In this document: piece after piece, positions 47,956-61,818 of the stretch
Position numbering within the stretch: the first letter of the stretch is position 1
How the letters are laid out: every line of letters begins with the position of its first letter
Assembly (NCBI GenBank): GCA_000165425.1
Contig: CT868020.1
Span: 1 to 64,000 of the forward strand
Source of the DNA: Paramecium tetraurelia
Taxonomy: Eukaryota
DNA: 64,000 nucleotides
Direction: 5' to 3'
Notes under the pieces: model-generated
Databases searched by the model: none
The model's input: only the letters and a program-made list of their open reading frames with translations
Told to the model about the DNA's origin: nothing
Translations under genes and position numbers: made by a program

Positions 47956-48531
47956 TCAATCTGGATTGTCAAAGTAATTAGTAATTATTCTTTAACGATA
48001 GGTGAAGTAGAGTAATGGATCTATCCTCAATTTAAAGTCCAATAAGAAAACCAAGACTCTTTCCAAATGGTTGAATTCCTCATGTGAAATCCCAGCTACC
48101 TTTGCATAATATGAATTCTGAAAGAACCTATCATCATAAAACTTTGCTGATAACATGACTGCCACAACGTACAATCTCTTATTAATTATAATGCATTACC
48201 GATGGACATTAATTGATTTTAATATAATTCTCCCCTATTTTTATGACAATTTATCTATGAATATTAAACCCATTATTAAGCATTCCTAGGAACATTAAGC
48301 CTACTTTAAAATTCTGCATAGGTAATCATAAATAGAAATAGAGGGAATCTTAGAACTATTAAAAGCTTCAAGTTCTTAAATGCTATTAGCATCATTGTCA
48401 CCTTCTTCACACAAATCCATAAGCAAATAAGCCATAGCACTTGATAATTATTTATTATCAGCAATTTGCTAATTGTATAATTCATGTTATTATTCGTAGC
48501 TCAATTCTGTTGTTAATCCTAGGTTTTGCAT
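47956..48531 (-). CDS. Cyclin P/U (Pho80-like)
   Basis: PSISIYDYLCRI, CSQECLIMGLIFIDK, NVHRL, AKFYDD..QNSYYAKVAGI; one intron. Confidence 0.93.
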
Positions 48532-49395
48532 TTAAGTATTTATAATTATTATTCAATATATTGTTGTTTGATGTATCAATTTTCTTTAATAAAGTAAATT
48601 ATTATATTTCCATATTCCATATTTATCTACATTTTGGTGATATAGCATGCAGCCTACATTTTGCTCAATTTTTGAATATCTTGTATCATCTACAACACTA
48701 TAAAACGAACAAATTCATTAGGAAACTTCTATATAATGCTTATAAATAAACTATTTAATTTAATATAATCATAATAAATTATACTATTATATTACAGATT
48801 TTAGCAATAGTAGTTATTAATTGAATATTCTTAGACTGGATAATATTATTAATGATTTAAGTTTATTTTCGTTAATTATAATTAAGTTTACCATAAATTA
48901 ACTTAGTTCTTATTTGATTAAAGTGTGATATACTGTTCTCCCAATAAAACTTTAGATACATTTTTATATATTAGATCGTTATTGTATATATTCATTATAT
49001 TAAACAAGTCATCTGATTTCACTTTATTTTTTCTAAATTATCTTTCATTAATTCAATCTAATTAAAATCATTTGATTTAATAACTTAGTACTTACCTATA
49101 TTAATTGTTAAATATATATTTCTTTTGATAGATTTTATAATAATTATTAAATTCTAATTAAGTACGTGATTAGGTTAATAAGATAATACATTTAATATTG
49201 ATTCTAATAAATTATATAAAGAAGCAGTTCTATTTTGCTTAATTTAATTATGCATAAAATTCGGTTGAATCCCATATAAATTCAAAAGAGTATAGAGAGT
49301 GAAGGAAGTGGGTGGATGATATTGAGAATATTGATTCTAATTTGAGAGTATTAAAGAATAAAAAATTAATATCTTTTAATTAAAAAAAATATATT

Positions 49396-49925
49396 ATGGC
49401 AGACGTTCAAAAATCAAAGAGCATTCTAAAAATAAGAAGGCATTTTCTAAAACTCCAAGAAACTCTTAGCTAAGAAGACATCAAAAGGTGTTAGATACTG
49501 GAAAGAAGTTGGTTTGGGGTTCAAAGTACCAAAGGATGCAATTGAGGGTAATTACATTGATAAGAAATGTCCATTCACAGGAAATGTCAGTGTCAGAGGA
49601 GCAATATTAAAGTATGATCTAGAATGATTGTATTATAGAGGAATTGTCATTTCAACTAAGATGACAAGAACCATCATTATTAGAAGAGATTATTTGCACT
49701 ATGTTGCCAAATATAACAGATATGAAAAGAGACACAGAAATGTACCAGTGCACATTTCACCAGCATTTGGACCAGTCAAGGAAGGAGATATCGTTGTTTG
49801 TGGACAATGCAGGTACAATTGAATTAATATGAAGACCATTGTCAAAGACTGTTAGATTCAATGTTTTGAAAGTAATCCCAAATGAAATCATTGGTAATGT
49901 TAGAAAGCAATTTGTTTTGTTCTGA
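49396..49925 (+). CDS. RPS11: 40S ribosomal protein S11 (uS17), with an apparent +1 frameshift at codon 5-6
   Basis: [57 protein letters not shown]; two introns. Confidence 0.96.
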
Positions 49926-49994: not shown

Positions 49995-52982
49995 ATGGAC
50001 GACATGAATAATTACGATGAGTTCGGAAATTACATAGGGCCAGAAATCGATTCAGAGGAAGAAGACAATGTGTAGATTGAAGAGGAATAAATGGCTGAGA
50101 ATGACCAAGAACATGTAATAGCAAATGTAAGAAAATGCTTCTATCTTTGAAGAGAGTGTACATACCTAATCAATAAGTTGCAGTCATTCTTAATGAAGAC
50201 AAATAATACTATCCAGATGCATAACAAGTGTATGGTCGAGATGTTGAAATCAATGTGCAAGAAGAGGATGCTTAGCCAATAACTCAGCCAATGATTGCTC
50301 CATTAAAATCAAAGGAATTTGATATCTAAGAGACACAGATACCTCAAACTACTTTCGACTATGAGTTTCTGTGTCGTATTTCTAAGAATCCAGCTTTGGT
50401 AAGAAATGTTGCAATTGTAGGCGGTCTGCATCATGGTAAGACATCAATGATGGACGTCTTTGTTAAGCAAACTCATCTTAAGCAATTTAGTTTGTAGAAA
50501 GACATCCGATACACCGATACTCGTCAAGATGAATAATAGAGATTGATCTCCATCAAGGCAATCCCTATGAGTTTATTGTTACCAAATAGCAAAGATAAAT
50601 CATATTTGATAAATCTCTATGACACTCCTGGACATGTGAACTTCATGGACGAGGTGTGTTGTGCCTTACGAGCCAGTGATGCCATGTTGCTCATTATTGA
50701 TGTGATTGAAGGAGTCATGATGACTACTGAAATGCTAATCAAGGCGGCTGTCAAGGAGAAGATGCCTATTGTAGTCGTGATAAACAAAATAGATAGATTA
50801 ATCATTGAGTTGAAGTTGCCACCTTCAGATGCCTATTTGAAGATCAAAAACATACTTGATGAAGTCAATATCATTATATCCGATAATGGAGGTAATTAGA
50901 TCATATCACCTCTCAATCATAATGTGGTATTTGGTTCAGGTTTATTTTAATTTGTTTTTACAATCTAGAGTTTTGCAAGGAGATATAACAATTTCTTAAA
51001 TCCAGAACAATTCACTCGTCTATTATGGGGAGACATCTACTACGATAATAAAGAAAAGAAATTTGTTCGTAAAATGTCACCATATGCTACCTAAAGGACA
51101 TTTGTTGAGTTTATTTTAGAACCCATATATAAGTTATTTGGGTAAGTGGTTTCTAAGGATAAGGAACAATCTAGAACCGTTCTTATTGAGCCAAGGGATA
51201 TCTCTCAAAAAAAGTGAATTCAAAATGGACACTAGACCATTACTGAAATTGGTTTGTTCTATCTATTTTGGTAATACCTCTTCTTTAGTTGATGTACTAG
51301 TGGAGTAAGTCCCTAATTCTCAGGAAGGTAGTAAAAGGAAAATGGAATTATATTATTAGGGTGACAAATCGAAATAATCATTTATTCAAGCATCTCAAGG
51401 TTCACACAAGGGACCATTATGTATAAATGTTGTGAAATTGTACAGTAGACCAGATTGCATGAGTTTCGATGCTCTGGGGAGAGTGGTCAGTGGAACTATT
51501 AAAAAGGGATAGAATGTTAAATTATTAGGAGAAAAATATAATATAGATGATGAAGAGGATATGGCAATCAGGAATATCAAGAACATATATATCTATCAAG
51601 GTAGATATAGAGTAGAAGTGAATAAAGTGCCTGCAGGAAATTGGGTGTTGATTGAGGGCATTGATTAATTTATTAGCAAGAGTGCTACTATTACAGAGGA
51701 TTCTTAACAGATGGACATCTTGAGACCTATTTAACATAACATTTTAGCGACTATGAAGATTGCCATAGAACCATTAGTTCCAAGTGAATTACCTAAAATG
51801 TTAGAAGGTCTACGTAAGGTAACTAAGAGTTATCCTATTTTGACAACTAAAGTGGAAGAATCTGGAGAACATATTCTATTAGGAACAGGTGAATTATATT
51901 TGGATTGTGTTATGCATGATTTAAGAAAAATGTATTCAGAAATAGAAATTAAAGTATCAGATCCATCAGTTCGTTTTTGTGAAACTGTTATTGAAACATC
52001 ATCAAAAACATGTTATGCAGATACTCCCAATAAAAAGAATAGGGTATTTTGATTAATATAGTATTAATTAGATTAAAGCATTGGCAACTCCATTAGACAA
52101 AGGTTTGACACCTTAAGATAAGGGTTTGGCTGAGAGAATTGAGAATGAAGAGATTGATTTATCATGGCCTAAGAATAAATTAACCGAATATTTTAAATCC
52201 AATTTTAATTGGGATATAATTTAGAGTAGATCTGTGTGGGCATTCGGTCCAGAGAAAACGGGACCCAATGTATTTCTAGATGATACTCTACCATCTGAAA
52301 CAAACAAATAGTTATTAACTGAAGTCAAAGACTATATGATTTAAGGTTTTTAATGGGCAACCAGAGAAGGTCCTTTGTGTGATGAGCCAATCAGAAATGT
52401 GAAATTCAAGATCATCGAAGCCAACATTGCTAATGTAATCATTCCATTTTAATGTAGGAACCCATTTATAGAGGAGGTGGTTAAATAATCCCCACAACAA
52501 GAAGGGTGTGCTATTCTTCATTCCTTATGGCAACCCCAAAAATCATGGAACCAATGTTATTAACAGAAATTATGTGTTTCCAAGACTGTATTCCTGCCAT
52601 CCACAATGTTCTATTAAGAAGAAGAGGACACATCTTATCAGAATAGGCAAAGCCAGGCACACCATTCTCAGTTGTGAGAGCCCACATTCCAACGATTGAT
52701 CACTTTGGATTTGAAACTGATCTTAGAGTACACACTTCAGGATAAGCCTTCTGTTTAAGTGTTTTCGATCATTGGTCATTATTACCAGGAGATCCTTTAG
52801 ATAAAACCATAGTGCTTAAGCCTTTAGAGCCAGCACCTTCAAATCATTTGGCCAGAGAATTCATGATCAAAACTAGGAGAAGAAAGGGTTTGAATGAAGA
52901 TGTGTCTATTTTGAAATTCTTTGATGATCAGTTCTTAATTGATTCACTCAAACAAGACAAAGACTATTAATAGTATATTTGA
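49995..52982 (+). CDS. SNU114: U5 snRNP 116-kDa GTPase (Snu114/EFTUD2), with an apparent +1 frameshift near 51170
   Basis: [72 protein letters not shown]. Confidence 0.96.
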
Positions 52983-53190: not shown

Positions 53191-54152
53191 TCATTATCCT
53201 AATAGTGGCTTGTAGACTTATCTTGTATTGATGTTAATTCTGTGTTCGGTTAAGTAATTAAAAACATGAAAATCAGTATTTAAATTAGCAACAAGCTTTG
53301 ATTATTGGAAGGGGTTTCTAATTGTATTATGAGAGTGAGTACTATATAGGATGAAATGAATTTTCAAGGACTCTGGGTACTCCATGATAGCATTTCCGAG
53401 CATGGCCACTCATAACTAGTAAATCTCCGGAGTCCAACTTAATTGCAACAGGTTTTTCATCTTTGGTTGGTCCTCCGATGACGAAAACACTTGACAATCC
53501 AAAACTAAAGGAGTAGATAGGAGAATCTTGATCTAGTTCGGCATCATCTAAATGTCCTGTCATGTAATCATGAGATTAATAAAAGTTGATAATGACTGAT
53601 TCACTTTGGTAGTGATTTTGCAATTATAAGAAGTTGTTGGCTCTTTGAGATATCTCTTAGATTGGATCAGGCACTTGTGTTTTTTCTGGAGGGTAGTGTC
53701 TAGATTGAGATGATGAGTTACCTATTGTTCCAATCATATTGATAGCCAACATTTGCCCATCTGATTTTATTATTGAAGTGATATTTCTTGTCATCGTGGA
53801 CTATGAATTTGTCGAAGTTCTCGTCTTCTTTGTAGATGAAGAGATTGGTTCTGTAGGGTTGATTGATGTATTCGTTCATGCACAATTTGGAGATGCTAAT
53901 TTAATCGTCTAGGTTGAGGAAACCCTTGACTAGGATGACTCCTTGGGGGTAATCGAATCGATGGACAGATCCATTCTTATGAATTCCTTGTTGTTCCATT
54001 TATTGTTCATTTAGATTGTTGACATCGATGAGTTCACTAAAATCGGTTTGGAGACCAGCATAGAATTTGTACTTTTTTTCTGTTTCTTTGAAGGGATTTA
54101 AATTTTAGTATTGGATAGGCTTTTATTTGTTTTTTTTAATCTTCTAATACAT
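53191..54152 (-). CDS. ALKBH1: AlkB homolog 1 (2OG-Fe(II) dioxygenase)
   Basis: KIRWANVGYQYDW, INFY, MTGHLDDAE (HxD), CYHGVPRV, RININTRQV; one intron. Confidence 0.9.
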
Positions 54153-54335
54153 AAATTTATTTAATGAAAGAATTCGCATAAAATTAAAATTGATTGTAAT
54201 TAGATGTATATTACTTAAGATTATAAAATAATTTTCTAAAATAAAATTATACAATTTCAAAAAAATGTAATAAATTACATCATCAGATATAATTTAAAAA
54301 ATGAGGGACTTTGTTTTCACATATATTATTTTAAG

Positions 54336-56790
54336 ATGATTAGCCTTTTCATTCTAGGTCTCGTTGATTTGATACTCTGTTAGAATAGATTTTATTACCA
54401 TGACCCGAGTAATGACATTACAAAACCAAGAACTCACGCCAAGATCTCTGATAGCGGTAACTGAATAATTAATAATCTGTAGACACTCATTTCGATTTTT
54501 ACTTTGAGTTTAGCGAAGATAAGAAGGAAGTGATAATGTTCATAGAGATAGATAAAATTAGTTATTTTTCATTGGGACTTGGAAAATCCATGTCAGATGG
54601 AGATTTATGGGTATTTGAAGTTTACGAAAATGTGATAACTGTTAACGATTCTTATTGTGAGAAACATGGAAGACCTCCAACTGATGTTTCCTTAGGAGGG
54701 ACAGACGATTTGTAACTCTTGGGTTACTACTACAATTAGAATGGCAAAACAGGTGTGAAGTTCAAGAGATCAGTTAAAACAGGTATCCACATCAATCTAA
54801 ATATGTTAGGCGACAAATATGACAAAGACTTAGTGGAGGGAGAAGCAGTGGAGTTCATATGGGCTCACGGTAAGACGGAGGCTAATATCACATTGTCCAA
54901 CCATGGGAATGTGAACAGAGGAGCTGTGGTATTGAATTTCACCGATGATGGAGGCAGCAACGATGTCATTATAGTGGATGGAGACAACACCTATTACATT
55001 CACAAATGGACAAACTTTGCCTGTTGGGGCATAGCAAGTGATGTTGCGATAATTGTTGGAAGGTATTACAAGACCTGGGGATATCGAACATATCTCCATG
55101 GGTTCTTGTTCATCTTGATAGTGACGAGTTCCATCACAACAGCCATGATGATGTTGAGTACAGATTGGGCTATTTTGGAATGGAGCAACTTTAAGGAATA
55201 ATCCATTAAAAATCAATTCCATATTATCATTTTTATGATTGTGGCAATATTTATGATTGCATAAAGCATTGGAGGCGTTCTCTATAATTTAATGTTAAGT
55301 TCATTGAAGATTAACCAAAAGGTCTCAGTCAAACCCTCCATTCATGCCATTTTAGGCAATGTCGTATACACACTCGGCAAATTACAAATCATAGCAGGTC
55401 TCTTCATGGACAACGATGTTAGACTCATGTTGATTTTGGGAGCTGTTTTCACCACTCGCCTTATATTGGAAATCCTGTATCAAAAGGGTAGTTTGGTTAG
55501 TGTAGTCATGACTGGAAAAGACTCGCATTCCAATAAAGTGTATGAGGAGGGTTAAAATCGCTTATTGGATATCAACAGTAGTCAGCAAGATGACAGTTTC
55601 GAAAAGAATTCTTCAAAATTATGGTGCATCTATAAGAACCAAGTCGTTGAATTGTCACAGATGATTCATCCAGGTGGCAATTACATTTGGAAACTTATTT
55701 AAGGCCAAGATGTTACTCGATATATTATAGGAGCTTACTCTCTTGATTAACTCAAACTCCAAGCCTACAAACACAGCATCTACACTCTCAAGATATTGGA
55801 ATAATATGTTACAGGTATCTATGTCATTCCAGATCCAGAATTCTTTGTCAATAAAGCTAATAGAAGAGTAGTCAAATAATTAGAGGAAACATGGAAATTG
55901 AATACAGTTAATCCCTATACTGATTAAGTTGCTTACTTCGGATTTGTTAATGAAAAGTATCAATTCAAAAATACTTTATCTGGTCTCCAAACATTTGGCC
56001 AATACTTTGTAATCACATCCTAAGAGGATTCAGCTATTTCTACTAGATAGTACACCATGGTCTTAAGTATGACTTAGCAAAGGATCAAGTATAGAAAGGA
56101 CATATCGGAACTCTTTAAAAAGATTCTCTCTTTGCAAAACATACAGAAGGAAGTTCCAAAAGAGGAAGAATACTTGTCTGAGTTACCTTTAATAATTAAG
56201 AAGTATCAATCAAAAAATGGGTTCTCCTCTTTCATTCATGACGACAATCGCAATGGAGAGTATCTTATTCAAGGACCTTATGGAAATAATCTCACTATTG
56301 AAAATGGCAGTCATTTAGTGTTCATTGCAGGTGGCACTGGATTGTTCCCATTCTTAGACTTACTTGAATATCAACTCAAAATGACCTATCATAACATACT
56401 ATATAAGTAGTTCGGCTAAGATGCTGTGTAATTTATGAACCCAGGAACAATTAAGAATTTCAAAATCACTCTATTTCTAGCTGTCAACTCAGCAGATGAT
56501 TTGGTATTTATCTTATTCATTATTCTTAGATTGGCAAAGACATCTATTTCACTTTGTTATCGTTACAAAACCAATTGGACACACCCAATTTCAAAATGAT
56601 CGTCAAAGGAAACTTTAAATTAAAGGAATGCGAGATCATCCCCCAAAGATTCAATGCCTAGATTTTGAAGTCGTTCCTTGGGGACTTCAATTCTGTATCC
56701 AATTTCTTTATTTGTGGACCACCCACTATGAATACTACAACCGAAAAAATCTTAAGAGATGTGGGAGTTAATAACATAACTGTTCTTTGA
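54336..56790 (+). CDS. DOMON + cytochrome b561 + cytochrome b5 + FAD/NAD(P)H-binding reductase fusion
   Basis: Signal peptide; GLGKSMSDGD..IWAHG..NHG; four His-bearing TM helices; HPGG...HS; RQYT, GPYG, AGGTGLFPF, ICGPP. Confidence 0.9.
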
Positions 56791-56822
56791 TTATTTATAT
56801 ATAGATATAATTATGAATATCA

Positions 56823-58164
56823 TCATTGTTTTATGTACAATTTTTAGTAACAAGAAACACTGAACTTACTGACACACACACACACCATCAAGAAGAATAT
56901 CGACCATTCAATTGGTTTTTCTATATAATTGAACATATATATATACATGCTAACATTATTGAAACAATGGTAGATATCATCCCTCCACAACACTATAAAA
57001 AGTTAAATAGACCAAAATATTGGATATGATCATTCCAATCCTAGGCAATTATGGCCAATAATGTAGACGTAGTGCCACAATCAACCAATCCCCAAAGAAT
57101 GGCTATTAAAAAACACAGGCCGTAATTCTATTCGTAAGTGTTCATTATAGCCAATAACAAGGCTATGGATATTAAATGAAATTGCAATAGTTGGCTTGTA
57201 TATTTAGGCGTATAAGAGTTGAATACACCTACAAATATCTATAAAATAGGAATAATATTATACTCCTCCCAAGACTTCACAACATCCTAAGACTGTCATA
57301 ACGAATAGAGTATATTTGGTGATTTCTTCGTCACTAAGAGATGAAGTGTTAATAGAATTTTCAATGACATAATGCATAACATTCCATTGAAAACTCAAAA
57401 GACACCCAGTGATCATCATCGGGAAAATAAAGCATTATACTCTAAATTCTTTCATAGTCAAAATGACAGAAATTGGATTCAACTTTCTCAATTCCTAAGT
57501 GCTCTTGAATTATTGCTCATCTTCCTGGAGTAAAACAACACTGTGGGTATAACGCTTCGGTTAAGGTACCAAAAGAAAAGATAAAGAACCTAAAGTTGCC
57601 ACAGCGACCATCAAACAGTAAAAATAGAATTGCTTTATTTTAACAATCAAAAAGGCAGAATATAAACTACCTATGACTTAGGATAGTTATAGAACTGCCC
57701 AGGCAATACCATAATACAATCCAGCTTTTTTGGAATACTTACTCAATTATGCGACGTAATCATTTTGTGTAATAAACAGACCAGAGGACGTGAATCCACT
57801 TACGGCTGATGATATAATAGTCACTAAGTAGATCCAGAAATCACTGCAGATTCCATCCTCTTTATCTGCACAACTACAAACCAATAAGCCAGATATCAAA
57901 AATAGCAAATACCCAAGGGAATGAATAAAAAAACTATGATGATATGGCAATTTCCTGATGTATAAAATGCCTAGAATATTAATATTTGTATTTACAGACA
58001 AAATTTCCAATCATTCCAAAAAAGAAGATAGTGAAAATCGAAATATTCCCCAAATAATCGAAGCCTTTCTACTCAAAAATCTGGGTCATTACATTCAGGC
58101 CAGTCGATGTTGCTGATAAATATACCGCAAACACTAAGCTCATATAAATTAAGCTACAGAGCAT
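56823..58164 (-). CDS. UNC-93-like MFS membrane protein
   Basis: About 12 hydrophobic segments; LFITQNDYVA, GLYYGIAWAV, AILWGLVDCG. Confidence 0.8.
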
Positions 58165-58228
58165 ATCAAATTTAATAATAATCACATTTTTATAAATTAT
58201 TTAATTTATCATAACTTACATCATTTGA

Positions 58229-59082
58229 TCATAACAATTCATCAATAGATTAATATTATTCGTCATTCCCTTAAAATAATGATATTAATTCTTTTTCCTT
58301 TGATTTGAAGAGATACTCCAAACGAGTTCTTTTTTCTTGTTGTTGATTCCTCTTCAACACTTTGACAGCTTAACTCAATGAGATCTGTTTGGCCCTTTTT
58401 GCATTTTGCTTTTCCTTAAAACAATATTCTTACATGTCTCATAAGCAACTTAGCATTCGAACTTTCAAAACTCAACTAGTCAACGAATTTCTATTAAATG
58501 TCCGATTCTCTTTATTTACAATCGAATTTAGTTAATCTACCTAAGTATATTTTCCCTGAAATTCTCTGCTTCCTCTCTTTTTTCAATTGATTCGTATCAA
58601 ATGGTGGAGGAGATAAATTAGCATGGGCCAAAATAGGAGGTAATTCCTTCCTTTATCTACTATGATGACTCTACAACATCCTTTTAGGCGATTTCGTTTT
58701 TTCTCTCTTCTCTTCAGGTACAAAGGTTGGATTCGACAAAATCAGTTGCTCTTGAGAACTCTTATTCAAAATCAATTTGGATTGACTCTTATTATACTTT
58801 CTGCATTCAATAGATTGGGATTGGTGTACTAACGACTTCTAATTTTCATTTTATGGTAACTCAATAAATGGTTTACCTTGATTGAATTTAGGAAGTCTAG
58901 AACTTACTTATCTTAATCCAAACACTGAAATAGTAGTGGCATCATATACTTTCCAATTTGTTCGGATTTTAAATGAACAGATATCCTAATTTAATCTTAG
59001 TGTCAGTTCTAGCTGAAATGAATTCTGCTGGTTCCAAAATACTCTCCTATGAAATCATTCTCCTAGTTGTTTAAGAATCCAT
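58229..59082 (-). CDS. Hypothetical protein
   Basis: Code-6 ORF MDSQTTRRMISQESILEP with a 25-nt intron. Confidence 0.65.
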
Positions 59083-61025: not shown

Positions 61026-61818
61026 ATGAGACCATTTTTTTTGTAAACTCTTGAGAGCATAAAGAGTTCTGCTGGATATGATAACGAAGTTGACTTATTT
61101 TGTGAGCTTTAAGTAGTAGATTCAATGGAGAAGTCAAGTTAACCATAACTTAAATATATGATGTAATTCTGTTTGTTTAATTTAAAGGAGTTCACACTCT
61201 TCTCCTGATGAACGTATTCAAAATACATTTGAATAGGAATTTCATGCAAACCCAAGTGAGTAGAAACTAAACGATTCGAATTAGAACTAGATGCAAATTT
61301 AAAATTATAATGATAAAAATGAGAGAGTTTAAACTTTGAACTAAAGTGAACCAAAAAGACCTAAGAGAAATAGAAGGAAATTAAATGTTAATTCACAATT
61401 AATGGATTTCCAGTCCGAGAATAATTCGTCCTCCTAAAATTTGAGTATTATTGCTTGTAGATGCACTAAATCGAATTGCTTGAAATTGTATTGCTTATGC
61501 TTCCATTAAAATCAAAAATGCTCTGATCTTTGCAAATGTTTTGAATGTAAGAATAAGGCAGAGCATTTTGAGATCAGATTTAATGCTCTAGAGAAAGTCA
61601 AATAAAAATTGCATAGATAGAAAAACGATGATGATTTATTTGATAGATCAAAGATTTGGGGCTGCAAATGCCAGAAATCCTAATGTCAGAAGAATTATTG
61701 TGAATGTTTTGTCAGAAATTAGAAATGCTCTTCAAGTTGCAGATGCAAAGATTGTGCAAATAAAAAAAGATTTCCATTCTAGCAAAAAAAGAAATAGAAG
61801 AACCAATCTTAGGTTTGA
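61026..61818 (+). CDS. Tesmin/TSO1/LIN54-type CRC (two CXC) domain protein
   Basis: CRCTKSNCLKLYCLCF...C...CKC..CKN and GCKCQKSQCQKNYCECF...C...CRC..CAN; one intron. Confidence 0.92.

What the first reader, a model, noticed from the sequence alone, without database searches (positions are those of the whole stretch)
54336..56790. Self-contained trans-membrane electron wire in one polypeptide
Seen, N to C: signal peptide; DOMON with likely heme ligands Met (GKSMSDGD) and His (NHG); cyt b561 with four TM histidines (about 55001, 55096, 55220, 55343); cytosolic cyt b5 with both His ligands (HPGG, HS); FNR-type FAD (RQYT) and NAD(P)H (GPYG, GGTG, CGP) domains. Known: DOMON-b561 proteins (FRRS1/SDR2, plant CYBDOM) normally take electrons from ascorbate, and NOX/FRE enzymes use a different TM domain without b5. 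Inference: NAD(P)H to FAD to b5 to b561 to DOMON heme, an independently assembled NOX/FRE analogue that could reduce iron or make ROS in food vacuoles or at the surface. I know of no functional characterisation. It lies tail-to-tail with an MFS gene, which may be coincidental.
Basis: partly seen in the sequence, partly recalled or inferred. Interest (0 to 1): 0.85.

Follow-up and report, generated by a model that had tools for sequence, protein, structure and literature searches.

The report
Self-powered membrane electron wire in Paramecium
A Paramecium gene encodes one membrane protein that strings together a flavin enzyme and four haem sites, so it probably moves electrons from the cell's NAD(P)H to the outside or into a vacuole as NADPH oxidases and iron reductases do, but built from different parts and apparently unstudied.

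Summary
Observation confirmed. 54336-56790 (+) is one Paramecium gene (genetic code 6, three 26-27 nt introns, 791 aa). It is 750/791 identical to a P. octaurelia protein, and one transcript contig spans it with all three introns removed. Order: probable signal peptide, DOMON, five-helix cytochrome b561 core, cytochrome b5, b5-reductase-type FAD/NAD(P)H module. The membrane part folds like cytochrome b561 (Z 13.5) rather than NOX/STEAP (about 10). In 50 chosen relatives at 18% mean identity, five haem histidines are invariant and the sixth is kept in 48. The family spans ciliates. Relatives fuse the same wire to a haem peroxidase or a ceruloplasmin-like oxidase. The gene differs about 130-fold between two RNA libraries while its neighbours differ about 2-fold, so the MFS gene is probably unrelated. 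Best reading: an NAD(P)H-fed trans-membrane reductase (wire about 0.8), most likely reducing Fe(III)/Cu(II) (overall about 0.5); ROS production about 0.2. No activity is shown. It is not a NOX/FRE member. Ten literature searches found no description; the 2007 DOMON survey was unavailable.

The parts
54336..56790 (+). Whole gene, 791 aa, code 6; exons 54336-54456, 54483-54782, 54810-56503, 56530-56790
   Evidence: 750/791 identical to P0004; spliced contig 54272-56829
54336..54383 (+). Probable signal peptide (aa 1-16)
   Evidence: hydropathy 1.61, helix 2-14; required by loop-charge topology; no dedicated predictor run
54457..54482 (+). Intron 1 (26 nt)
54432..54937 (+). DOMON domain (aa 33-183); Met77 (54590) and His172 (54902) are the probable haem ligands
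   Evidence: PF03351 4e-16; fold match to the DBH DOMON, Z 15.8; family Met and His align with CDH cytochrome M65 and H163 in a weak alignment, E 0.29
54783..54809 (+). Intron 2 (27 nt, in frame)
   Evidence: (9-aa gap in all 10 relatives)
54986..55483 (+). Cytochrome b561-type membrane core, five helices; His205 (55001) and His278 (55220) outer, His237 (55097) and His319 (55343) cytosolic
   Evidence: model pLDDT 92; best folds 4o6y Z 13.5 and 5zlg Z 13.3; His kept in 50/50, 50/50, 50/50 and 48/50; loop charges
55604..55822 (+). Cytochrome b5 domain; His427 (HPGG, 55667) and His462 (55772)
   Evidence: PF00173 above cut-off in P0004; family profile to 2ibj 6e-10; both His 50/50
55880..56284 (+). 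FAD-binding beta-barrel of FNR/b5-reductase type (RxYT 56045, GPYG 56273), with a helical insert
56306..56787 (+). NAD(P)H-binding domain (GGTG 56330, CGP 56713); ends in an aliphatic, not aromatic, residue
   Evidence: fold of aa 484-791 matches 7rom Z 19.7, 7w3o 19.1, 6mv2 19.0; C-terminal residue V/L/I in 41 of 48
56504..56529 (+). Intron 3 (26 nt)

Best explanation
A single-chain, NAD(P)H-fed trans-membrane reductase. Cytosolic NAD(P)H (NADH somewhat likelier) passes a hydride to FAD in the b5-reductase module. FAD passes single electrons to the b5 haem, as in nitrate reductase and NCB5OR (established chemistry, recalled). The b5 domain sits on a flexible linker and takes the place of ascorbate as donor to the cytosolic b561 haem (His237/His319). 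The electron crosses the membrane to the outer haem (His205/His278), then to the Met/His haem of the DOMON domain, and on to an acceptor outside the cell or in a vacuole lumen. The likeliest acceptor is chelated Fe(III) or Cu(II), for example iron from digested bacteria, with the gene switched on only under some conditions. SHOWN: one gene, one transcript, the folds, conserved ligands, loop-charge topology and strong regulation. INFERRED: cofactor binding, b5-to-b561 transfer, direction, cofactor preference, acceptor and location. I put the wire itself at about 0.8 and a metal acceptor, given the wire, at about 0.6.
For: One spliced contig over the whole gene. Six haem His almost invariant, with RxY 46+3K/49, GP 47/49, GTG 49/46/49 and CG 44/44 of 50 chosen relatives at 18% mean identity. 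TM1-2 and TM3-4 loops net positive in 50/50 and 49/50, outer loops in 13/50 and 11/50. With five helices this puts DOMON outside and b5/FAD/NAD inside. The membrane core best matches b561 and the tail best matches NADH-b5 reductases. The Arg at H4-7, a predicted ascorbate contact in HYP1 (R307, H314) and CG8399 (R509, H516) (passages), is Arg in only 2 of 50 family members, as expected if a protein donor replaced ascorbate. The DOMON-b561 protein HYP1 reduces ferric and cupric substrates (PMC10784544, passages). One relative, P0159, fuses the wire to a ceruloplasmin-like multicopper oxidase (E 5e-131), the ferroxidase class that partners ferric reductases in iron uptake (recalled).
Against: No biochemical data. 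Full-length model pTM is only 0.67 and the TM-to-b5 linker (379-405) is disordered, so domain packing and haem distances are not established. The TM1-2 basic motif RYxK is kept (38/50 at each of its basic positions), so ascorbate binding is not excluded. Peroxidase fusions (P0097, P0132; Atlas cluster of 179 members) outnumber the single multicopper fusion and point to H2O2 rather than iron. About as many of the top 150 hits lack DOMON (36) as have it (38), so DOMON is dispensable in the family, although some of these may be truncated. The conditions behind the 130-fold switch are unknown, and it rests on two libraries. Nothing iron-related is co-regulated nearby.
Confidence: 0.5

Rival explanations
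1. Same wire, but O2 is the acceptor: an independently assembled NADPH oxidase analogue that makes superoxide or H2O2 in food vacuoles or at the surface. The peroxidase-fused relatives would then be true DUOX analogues with a working peroxidase.
For: P0097 and P0132 carry An_peroxidase (1e-113, 3e-123) upstream of an intact wire. Both show the distal GQFxxHD and proximal RYGH motifs, whereas DUOX has lost its proximal His (PMC4420034, passage). Tetrahymena food vacuoles contain ROS (PMC10944698, passages). The strong on/off expression fits an inducible defence role.
Against: Characterised b561/CYBDOM proteins reduce metals or ascorbate radical; I saw no report of O2 reduction in the passages read. 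The Paramecium protein has no peroxidase and no EF-hands. The Tetrahymena paper attributes the ROS to putative NOX homologues whose architecture I could not check. An Fe(II)-driven Fenton route could give ROS indirectly.
Confidence: 0.2
2. The wire feeds a specific protein or organic acceptor outside the cell: a separate surface oxygenase or peroxidase, disulfides, quinones or ascorbate radical in a lumen. This resembles the CDH cytochrome domain feeding LPMOs (recalled).
For: The DOMON haem site aligns with the CDH cytochrome domain. The family fuses with different extracellular redox enzymes. Ciliate relatives carry one or two DOMONs, and multi-DOMON-b561 proteins exist.
Against: No partner gene is adjacent or co-regulated. 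DOMON-less forms could hardly dock a protein acceptor.
Confidence: 0.15
3. The two halves are coupled only loosely. The b5/b5-reductase tail regenerates ascorbate or another small donor locally, or serves a cytosolic acceptor, and the b561 part works as an ordinary ascorbate-dependent CYBDOM.
For: The RYxK basic motif on the cytosolic loop is retained. The long disordered linker allows independent action.
Against: H4-7 Arg is lost in 48 of 50. The b561-b5-FAD-NAD core is kept together across deep lineages, with a narrow H4-to-b5 spacing of 98-135 residues.
Confidence: 0.1
4. Artefact: two neighbouring genes or a chimeric gene model.
For: One annotated P. tetraurelia relative (P0009, 674 aa) lacks most of DOMON.
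Against: A 715-codon open frame spans DOMON to the NAD domain. One transcript contig covers the gene. 9 of 10 Paramecium hits are 791-796 aa, and the same order occurs in Tetrahymena, Protocruzia and Blepharisma proteins.
Confidence: 0.01

Closest known systems
CYBDOM proteins (Arabidopsis HYP1/CRR, animal SDR2/FRRS1, insect CG8399)
   Same: Outer Met/His DOMON followed by a five-helix b561 core with H1-H4 on TM1-TM4 (PMC10691727, passages); spacing 32/41/41 here against 41/30/36 in CG8399 and 34/33/36 in HYP1.
   Different: CYBDOMs end after the membrane core and take electrons from ascorbate (PMC10784544). This protein adds about 425 cytosolic residues (b5, FAD and NAD(P)H domains) and lacks the H4-7 Arg.
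NOX/DUOX/FRE (ferric reductase domain superfamily), including the DOMON-FRE subfamily of Naegleria and oomycetes
   Same: Single-chain NAD(P)H to FAD to two TM haems to outside; the DOMON-FRE forms also carry an outer DOMON (PMC3591440, passage; relatives P0024, P0101, P0154 are of that type).
   Different: No PF01794, PF08022 or PF08030 hit for P0004. One His per helix instead of two pairs on TM3/TM5. An extra b5 haem, and a b5-reductase-type rather than NOX-type flavin domain. The family profile aligns with the DOMON-FRE P0024 only over DOMON.
Cytochrome b5 + b5-reductase tandem of NCB5OR (CYB5R4) and assimilatory nitrate reductase
   Same: b5 followed by an FNR-family FAD/NAD(P)H module; fold matches 6mv2 Z 19.0 and 7rom Z 19.7, and 5yly.
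   Different: Here the tandem is attached to a trans-membrane dihaem core, not to a Mo-pterin or CS domain. It has helical inserts in both subdomains and an aliphatic C-terminal residue.
DspNOX of demosponges
   Same: Holds a b561-like TM block in a protein with FAD/NADPH domains (PMC9524095, passages).
   Different: DspNOX keeps a canonical FRD, PAS and EF-hand. It has no DOMON or b5, and its b561 block is additional to the NOX core, not the conduit.
STEAP2-4 metalloreductases
   Same: Self-sufficient NADPH-fed trans-membrane metal reductases (recalled; 6hcy listed at Z 10.1).
   Different: STEAPs have one haem, an N-terminal oxidoreductase of another fold and an FRD-type membrane core (recalled).

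Membership tests
Cytochrome b561 domain | Four His on four consecutive TM helices, H1/H3 non-cytoplasmic and H2/H4 cytoplasmic | tested here: met
Cytochrome b561 domain | b561 fold | tested here: met
   top two of 48161 chains are 4o6y (Z 13.5, rmsd 3.0, 153 aligned) and 5zlg (Z 13.3, rmsd 3.0, 158 aligned); the next row is 11.4. Foldseek also ranks b561 first, but with non-significant E 0.2. Z about 13 is near the level helical bundles reach by common arrangement, so the His pattern carries part of the weight.
Cytochrome b561 domain | Pfam PF03188 above gathering score | tested here: inconclusive
   below cut-off for P0001 and P0004 (18 against 23 bits); above it in relatives such as P0014, P0018, P0075 and P0175
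CYBDOM | Outer DOMON with Met and His haem ligands before the b561 core | tested here: met
   M77/H172; Met 26, His 23 and both 22 of the 28 rows with a long N-terminus; aligned to CDH M65/H163 at weak E 0.29 (that these are the CDH ligands is recalled, and PMC10691727 confirms Met/His ligation)
CYBDOM | Cytosolic ascorbate site / ascorbate as donor | tested here: inconclusive
   H4-7 is Arg in 2/50 and Arg or Lys in 7/50, Val in this protein; the TM1-2 RYxK basic residues are kept in 38/50
CYBDOM | No own flavin/NAD(P)H module | tested here: not met
   b5 + FAD + NAD domains follow the core
NOX/FRE (FRD superfamily) | Ferric reductase TM domain (PF01794), His pairs on TM3 and TM5 | tested here: not met
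   no PF01794 hit in P0001 at E<=1 or P0004 at E<=0.01, while control-type relatives P0024, P0101 and P0154 hit it at 1e-13 or better; His spacing medians 32/37/41, one per helix; NOX5/STEAP Z about 10, below b561
NOX/FRE (FRD superfamily) | FAD_binding_8 + NAD_binding_6 dehydrogenase domain | tested here: not met
   family hits are FAD_binding_6 and NAD_binding_1 (one relative, P0025, has a sub-threshold NAD_binding_6 hit); best sequence and fold matches are b5 reductases, though NOX5-DH is only about 2 Z lower, as all share the FNR fold
NOX/DUOX | Reduces O2 to superoxide or H2O2 | not testable with these tools
   needs an assay
Cytochrome b5 domain | HPGG motif plus second axial His about 35 residues later | tested here: met
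   both His 50/50, spacing 34-38
FNR/b5-reductase family | RxY(T/S), GP, GxG and CG motifs on the FNR fold | tested here: met
FNR/b5-reductase family | NADH versus NADPH specificity residue | tested here: inconclusive
   the strand carrying the determinant is variable and poorly aligned across the family

The most novel reading that the evidence does not exclude
A second, independently assembled family of eukaryotic NAD(P)H oxidases, built on cytochrome b561 + b5 + b5 reductase instead of the ferric-reductase domain. It would supply vacuolar or surface ROS in ciliates, and its peroxidase-tipped members would be convergent DUOX enzymes that make H2O2 and use it in the same chain. The same portable wire is reused with a ferroxidase for iron handling.
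Probability: 0.2. Interest if true: 0.9.

Novelty: new variant of a known kind. Interest (0 to 1): 0.7.

Why it matters
The b561 proteins in the papers I read use ascorbate as donor, and NAD(P)H-fed trans-membrane electron export in eukaryotes is ascribed to the NOX/FRE/STEAP fold (recalled). If this protein works as built, eukaryotes assembled that function a second time from other modules, and genome surveys keyed on the ferric-reductase domain miss it. It gives a concrete, RNAi-testable candidate for how bacterivorous ciliates obtain iron from prey or make phagosomal ROS. It is strongly regulated and lies in a tractable organism. The peroxidase and ferroxidase fusions suggest a portable electron-supply module for extracellular redox enzymes.

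Tried and rejected
No whole genome is held, so paralogue number, synteny and whether this Paramecium has canonical NOX/FRE were not tested. Complex prediction (b561 core + three haems + b5) was not available, queue full; this says nothing about docking. The models come without coordinates, so haem-haem distances were not measured. A 'longer' word-based search with A1 found nothing, yet the HMM search found three long fusions, so that blank is only low sensitivity. A search with the wire part of P0097 returned only itself and P0142, neither named, so the organisms of the peroxidase and multicopper fusions are unknown to me. Single-sequence phmmer against the PDB gave only weak FNR-family hits. 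NCBIfam gave only sub-cut-off FNR-family hits. No listed holder of the DNA was on record as RNA; X4 is a guessed RNA run, but its contig lacks the introns. The tree is the quick version only. It shows one Paramecium clade and puts the peroxidase and multicopper fusions together (96, long branches, differing composition), so I draw no order of events from it. Functional link to the MFS or AlkB-like neighbours: rejected for lack of co-expression in the two libraries. Literature: 10 searches found no description of this architecture; one search was swamped by 'Chlamydomonas' matches. Iyer et al. 2007 (DOMON survey) and Asard et al. 2013 (b561 review) are not held and may list the architecture. 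Passage searches of PMC3591440 and PMC1940245 found no mention of ciliates; PMC11834939 has no DOMON mention; PMC8027222 and PMC7852580 were uninformative. No supplements were read.

Full report
Gene. The window is low-GC ciliate DNA. Under table 1 no long frame exists here; under table 6 a 715-codon frame runs 54452-56599. A scan for GTA...TAG introns found exactly three, at 54457-54482, 54783-54809 and 56504-56529. Removing them gives a 2376-nt CDS from ATG 54336 to TGA 56790, 791 aa, 750 of 791 residues identical without gaps to a P. octaurelia protein (P0004). The word-based search returned 10 proteins, all Paramecium, 60-93% identical; 9 of the 10 are 791-796 aa. The organism is therefore a Paramecium, closest to P. 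octaurelia among the hits.

Transcript. Four runs were laid on 53200-58400. Contig 12 of X4 (2481 nt; RNA is a guess) spans 54272-56829 and lacks exactly the three introns, whereas the unclassified run X15 retains them. Raw oligo-dT reads of X21 cover the gene on the expected strand, with spliced loose ends at introns 2 and 3. Mean depth over 13 bins is 343.7 in X21 and 3.0 in X22, two libraries of one study: 133-fold after scaling by letters read. The upstream AlkB-like gene changes 0.55-fold and the MFS gene 2.3-fold. The gene is thus strongly regulated and not in step with its neighbours. The conditions are unknown, and this rests on two libraries.

Domains. Pfam on P0004 gives DOMON 44-161 (4e-16) and Cyt-b5 406-478 (7e-6) above cut-off; NAD_binding_1 (7e-4) and Cytochrom_B561 (4e-3) fall below it. 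The weak calls were tested by structure. The full model of P0004 has pLDDT 84 and pTM 0.67, with a disordered linker at 379-405. Residues 484-791 match NADH-cytochrome b5 reductases best (7rom Z 19.7, rmsd 3.4, 236 aligned; 7w3o 19.1; Ncb5or 19.0), and residues 30-191 match the DOMON of dopamine beta-hydroxylase (Z 15.8). The family profile hits Physarum b5 reductase at 2e-16 and cytochrome b5 at 6e-10. The membrane part was folded alone (pLDDT 92, five long helices). Its top matches among 48161 chains are Arabidopsis cytochrome b561 (Z 13.5) and human Dcytb (Z 13.3), ahead of designed bundles (11.4) and STEAP/NOX5 (about 10); Foldseek gives the same order without significance. The DOMON Met and His align with M65 and H163 of the cellobiose dehydrogenase cytochrome domain in a weak alignment (E 0.29); that these are its haem ligands is recalled.

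Conservation. An HMM search of 1.84 billion representatives gave 1126 hits at E<=0.001, of which 150 were listed. I aligned 50 sequences (A2): 4 Paramecium proteins and 46 hits chosen for long coverage, leaving out fragments and DOMON-repeat proteins. Mean column identity is 18%. His205, 237, 278, 427 and 462 are present in 50 of 50 and His319 in 48 (Met in two); the RxY, GP, GTG and CG motifs are kept in 44-49. Among the 28 rows with a DOMON-length N-terminus, Met is kept in 26, His in 23 and both in 22; some misses look like one-column shifts. His spacing medians are 32, 37 and 41, one His per helix, the b561 and not the NOX pattern. Loops TM1-2 and TM3-4 are net positive in 50 and 49 of 50, and loops TM2-3 and TM4-5 in 13 and 11. 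By the positive-inside rule H2/H4 and the b5-reductase tail face the cytosol, while H1/H3 and DOMON face out, as in b561 proteins (PMC10691727, passages).

Family. With sub-profiles built from A2 (partly circular), 38 of the 150 listed hits show DOMON(s)-TM-b5-FAD-NAD and 36 show TM-b5-FAD-NAD. At least one of the 38 (P0061) is a gapped fragment, and some DOMON-less rows may be truncated, though P0014 (P. sonneborni) starts with a hydrophobic leader and has no DOMON. Of 30 proteins looked up, four carry an organism name, directly or through their cluster: Tetrahymena utriculariae, Protocruzia adherens, Blepharisma and P. sonneborni. An Atlas cluster of 54 members is mostly Ciliophora where the phylum is known. 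Three unnamed relatives extend the wire outward. P0097 and P0132 carry an N-terminal animal-type haem peroxidase with distal and proximal His motifs visible, and P0097 matches an Atlas cluster of 179 members. P0159 carries a ceruloplasmin-like multicopper oxidase (5e-131) between two DOMON-b561 units. All three keep the DOMON Met/His and the six haem His. Earlier AI notes of this scan report the same designs in chytrids and Basidiobolus; I did not test the fungal range and count them as leads only.

Mechanism. The parts form a continuous chain of the right sidedness: NAD(P)H, FAD, b5 haem, cytosolic b561 haem, outer b561 haem, DOMON haem, acceptor. FAD-to-b5 transfer is standard b5-reductase chemistry (recalled), and a three-haem b561-DOMON path with ferric and cupric reduction is reported for HYP1 (PMC10784544, passages). 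The untested link is b5 to b561. The Arg at H4-7, predicted to contact ascorbate in HYP1 and CG8399, is Arg in 2 of 50 here, which fits replacement of ascorbate by b5. However, the TM1-2 RYxK motif is kept, so the test is inconclusive. I put the wire at about 0.8. For the acceptor, CYBDOM precedent and the ferroxidase fusion favour Fe(III)/Cu(II) (overall 0.5). The more numerous peroxidase fusions and ROS in Tetrahymena food vacuoles (PMC10944698, passages) keep O2 alive (0.2). A protein or organic acceptor (0.15) and loosely coupled halves (0.1) remain.

Comparison and novelty. It works like a NOX/FRE but is not one. It has no ferric-reductase domain, a different His layout and a b5-reductase-type tail, and the family profile aligns with a DOMON-FRE protein only over DOMON. 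DOMON-FREs are published (PMC3591440, passage), as is DspNOX with an extra b561 block (PMC9524095, passages); both keep the NOX core. Its b561 and DOMON parts are those of a CYBDOM, but CYBDOMs lack a reductase module. Ten searches of the held library found no description of this fusion. The two papers most likely to list it were not available, and database entries already show its Pfam parts without a functional name. Verdict: real, expressed and conserved; a new variant of known kinds (a self-sufficient CYBDOM and convergent NOX/FRE analogue), function inferred. Interest 0.7.

Noticed in passing
P0159 (2338 aa, unnamed source): DOMON-b561, then a ceruloplasmin-like multicopper oxidase with copper motifs visible, then DOMON-b561-b5-FAD-NAD: a possible reductase plus ferroxidase in one chain.
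   Followed up: partly
P0097, P0132 (unnamed sources): Peroxidase-DOMON-b561-b5-FNR fusions with distal and proximal His motifs kept, unlike DUOX; P0097 and P0142 have T in place of R in the RxY flavin motif.
   Followed up: partly
P0043, P0054: DOMON-less relatives with Met in place of the fourth b561 His, possibly His/Met ligation of the cytosolic haem.
   Followed up: no
window 54955, 54998, 56464, 56488: About 12% of X21 reads show other letters absent from the contigs of X15 and X4, probably reads of a close paralogue that is switched on in the same library (inference).
   Followed up: no
window 56054-56180 and 56345-56420: Long helical inserts in the FAD and NAD subdomains, conserved as helices in the model and shorter in the Blepharisma-type clade; they could be docking or membrane-contact surfaces. 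The C-terminal residue is aliphatic in 41 of 48 relatives.
   Followed up: no
window 53273-54113 (-): AlkB-like 2OG-Fe(II) oxygenase gene (PF13532 2.5e-28), head-to-head about 220 nt upstream, expressed in both libraries and not co-regulated.
   Followed up: partly
window 56888-58353 (-): MFS transporter gene, tail-to-tail, low expression in both libraries, with a 25-nt intron at about 57239.
   Followed up: partly
P0015, P0029, P0031, P0042, P0093 and others: Large proteins with 5-12 tandem haem-type DOMON domains, some ending in b561 and others (P0024, P0101, P0154) in a true ferric-reductase domain: extended extracellular haem chains.
   Followed up: no
window 50105-52982 (+), 49346-49627 (+), 47956-48552 (-), 61162-61818 (+): Frames resembling U5 snRNP GTPase Snu114, ribosomal protein S11, a cyclin and a CXC/tesmin protein (seen; names recalled, not tested).
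   Followed up: no
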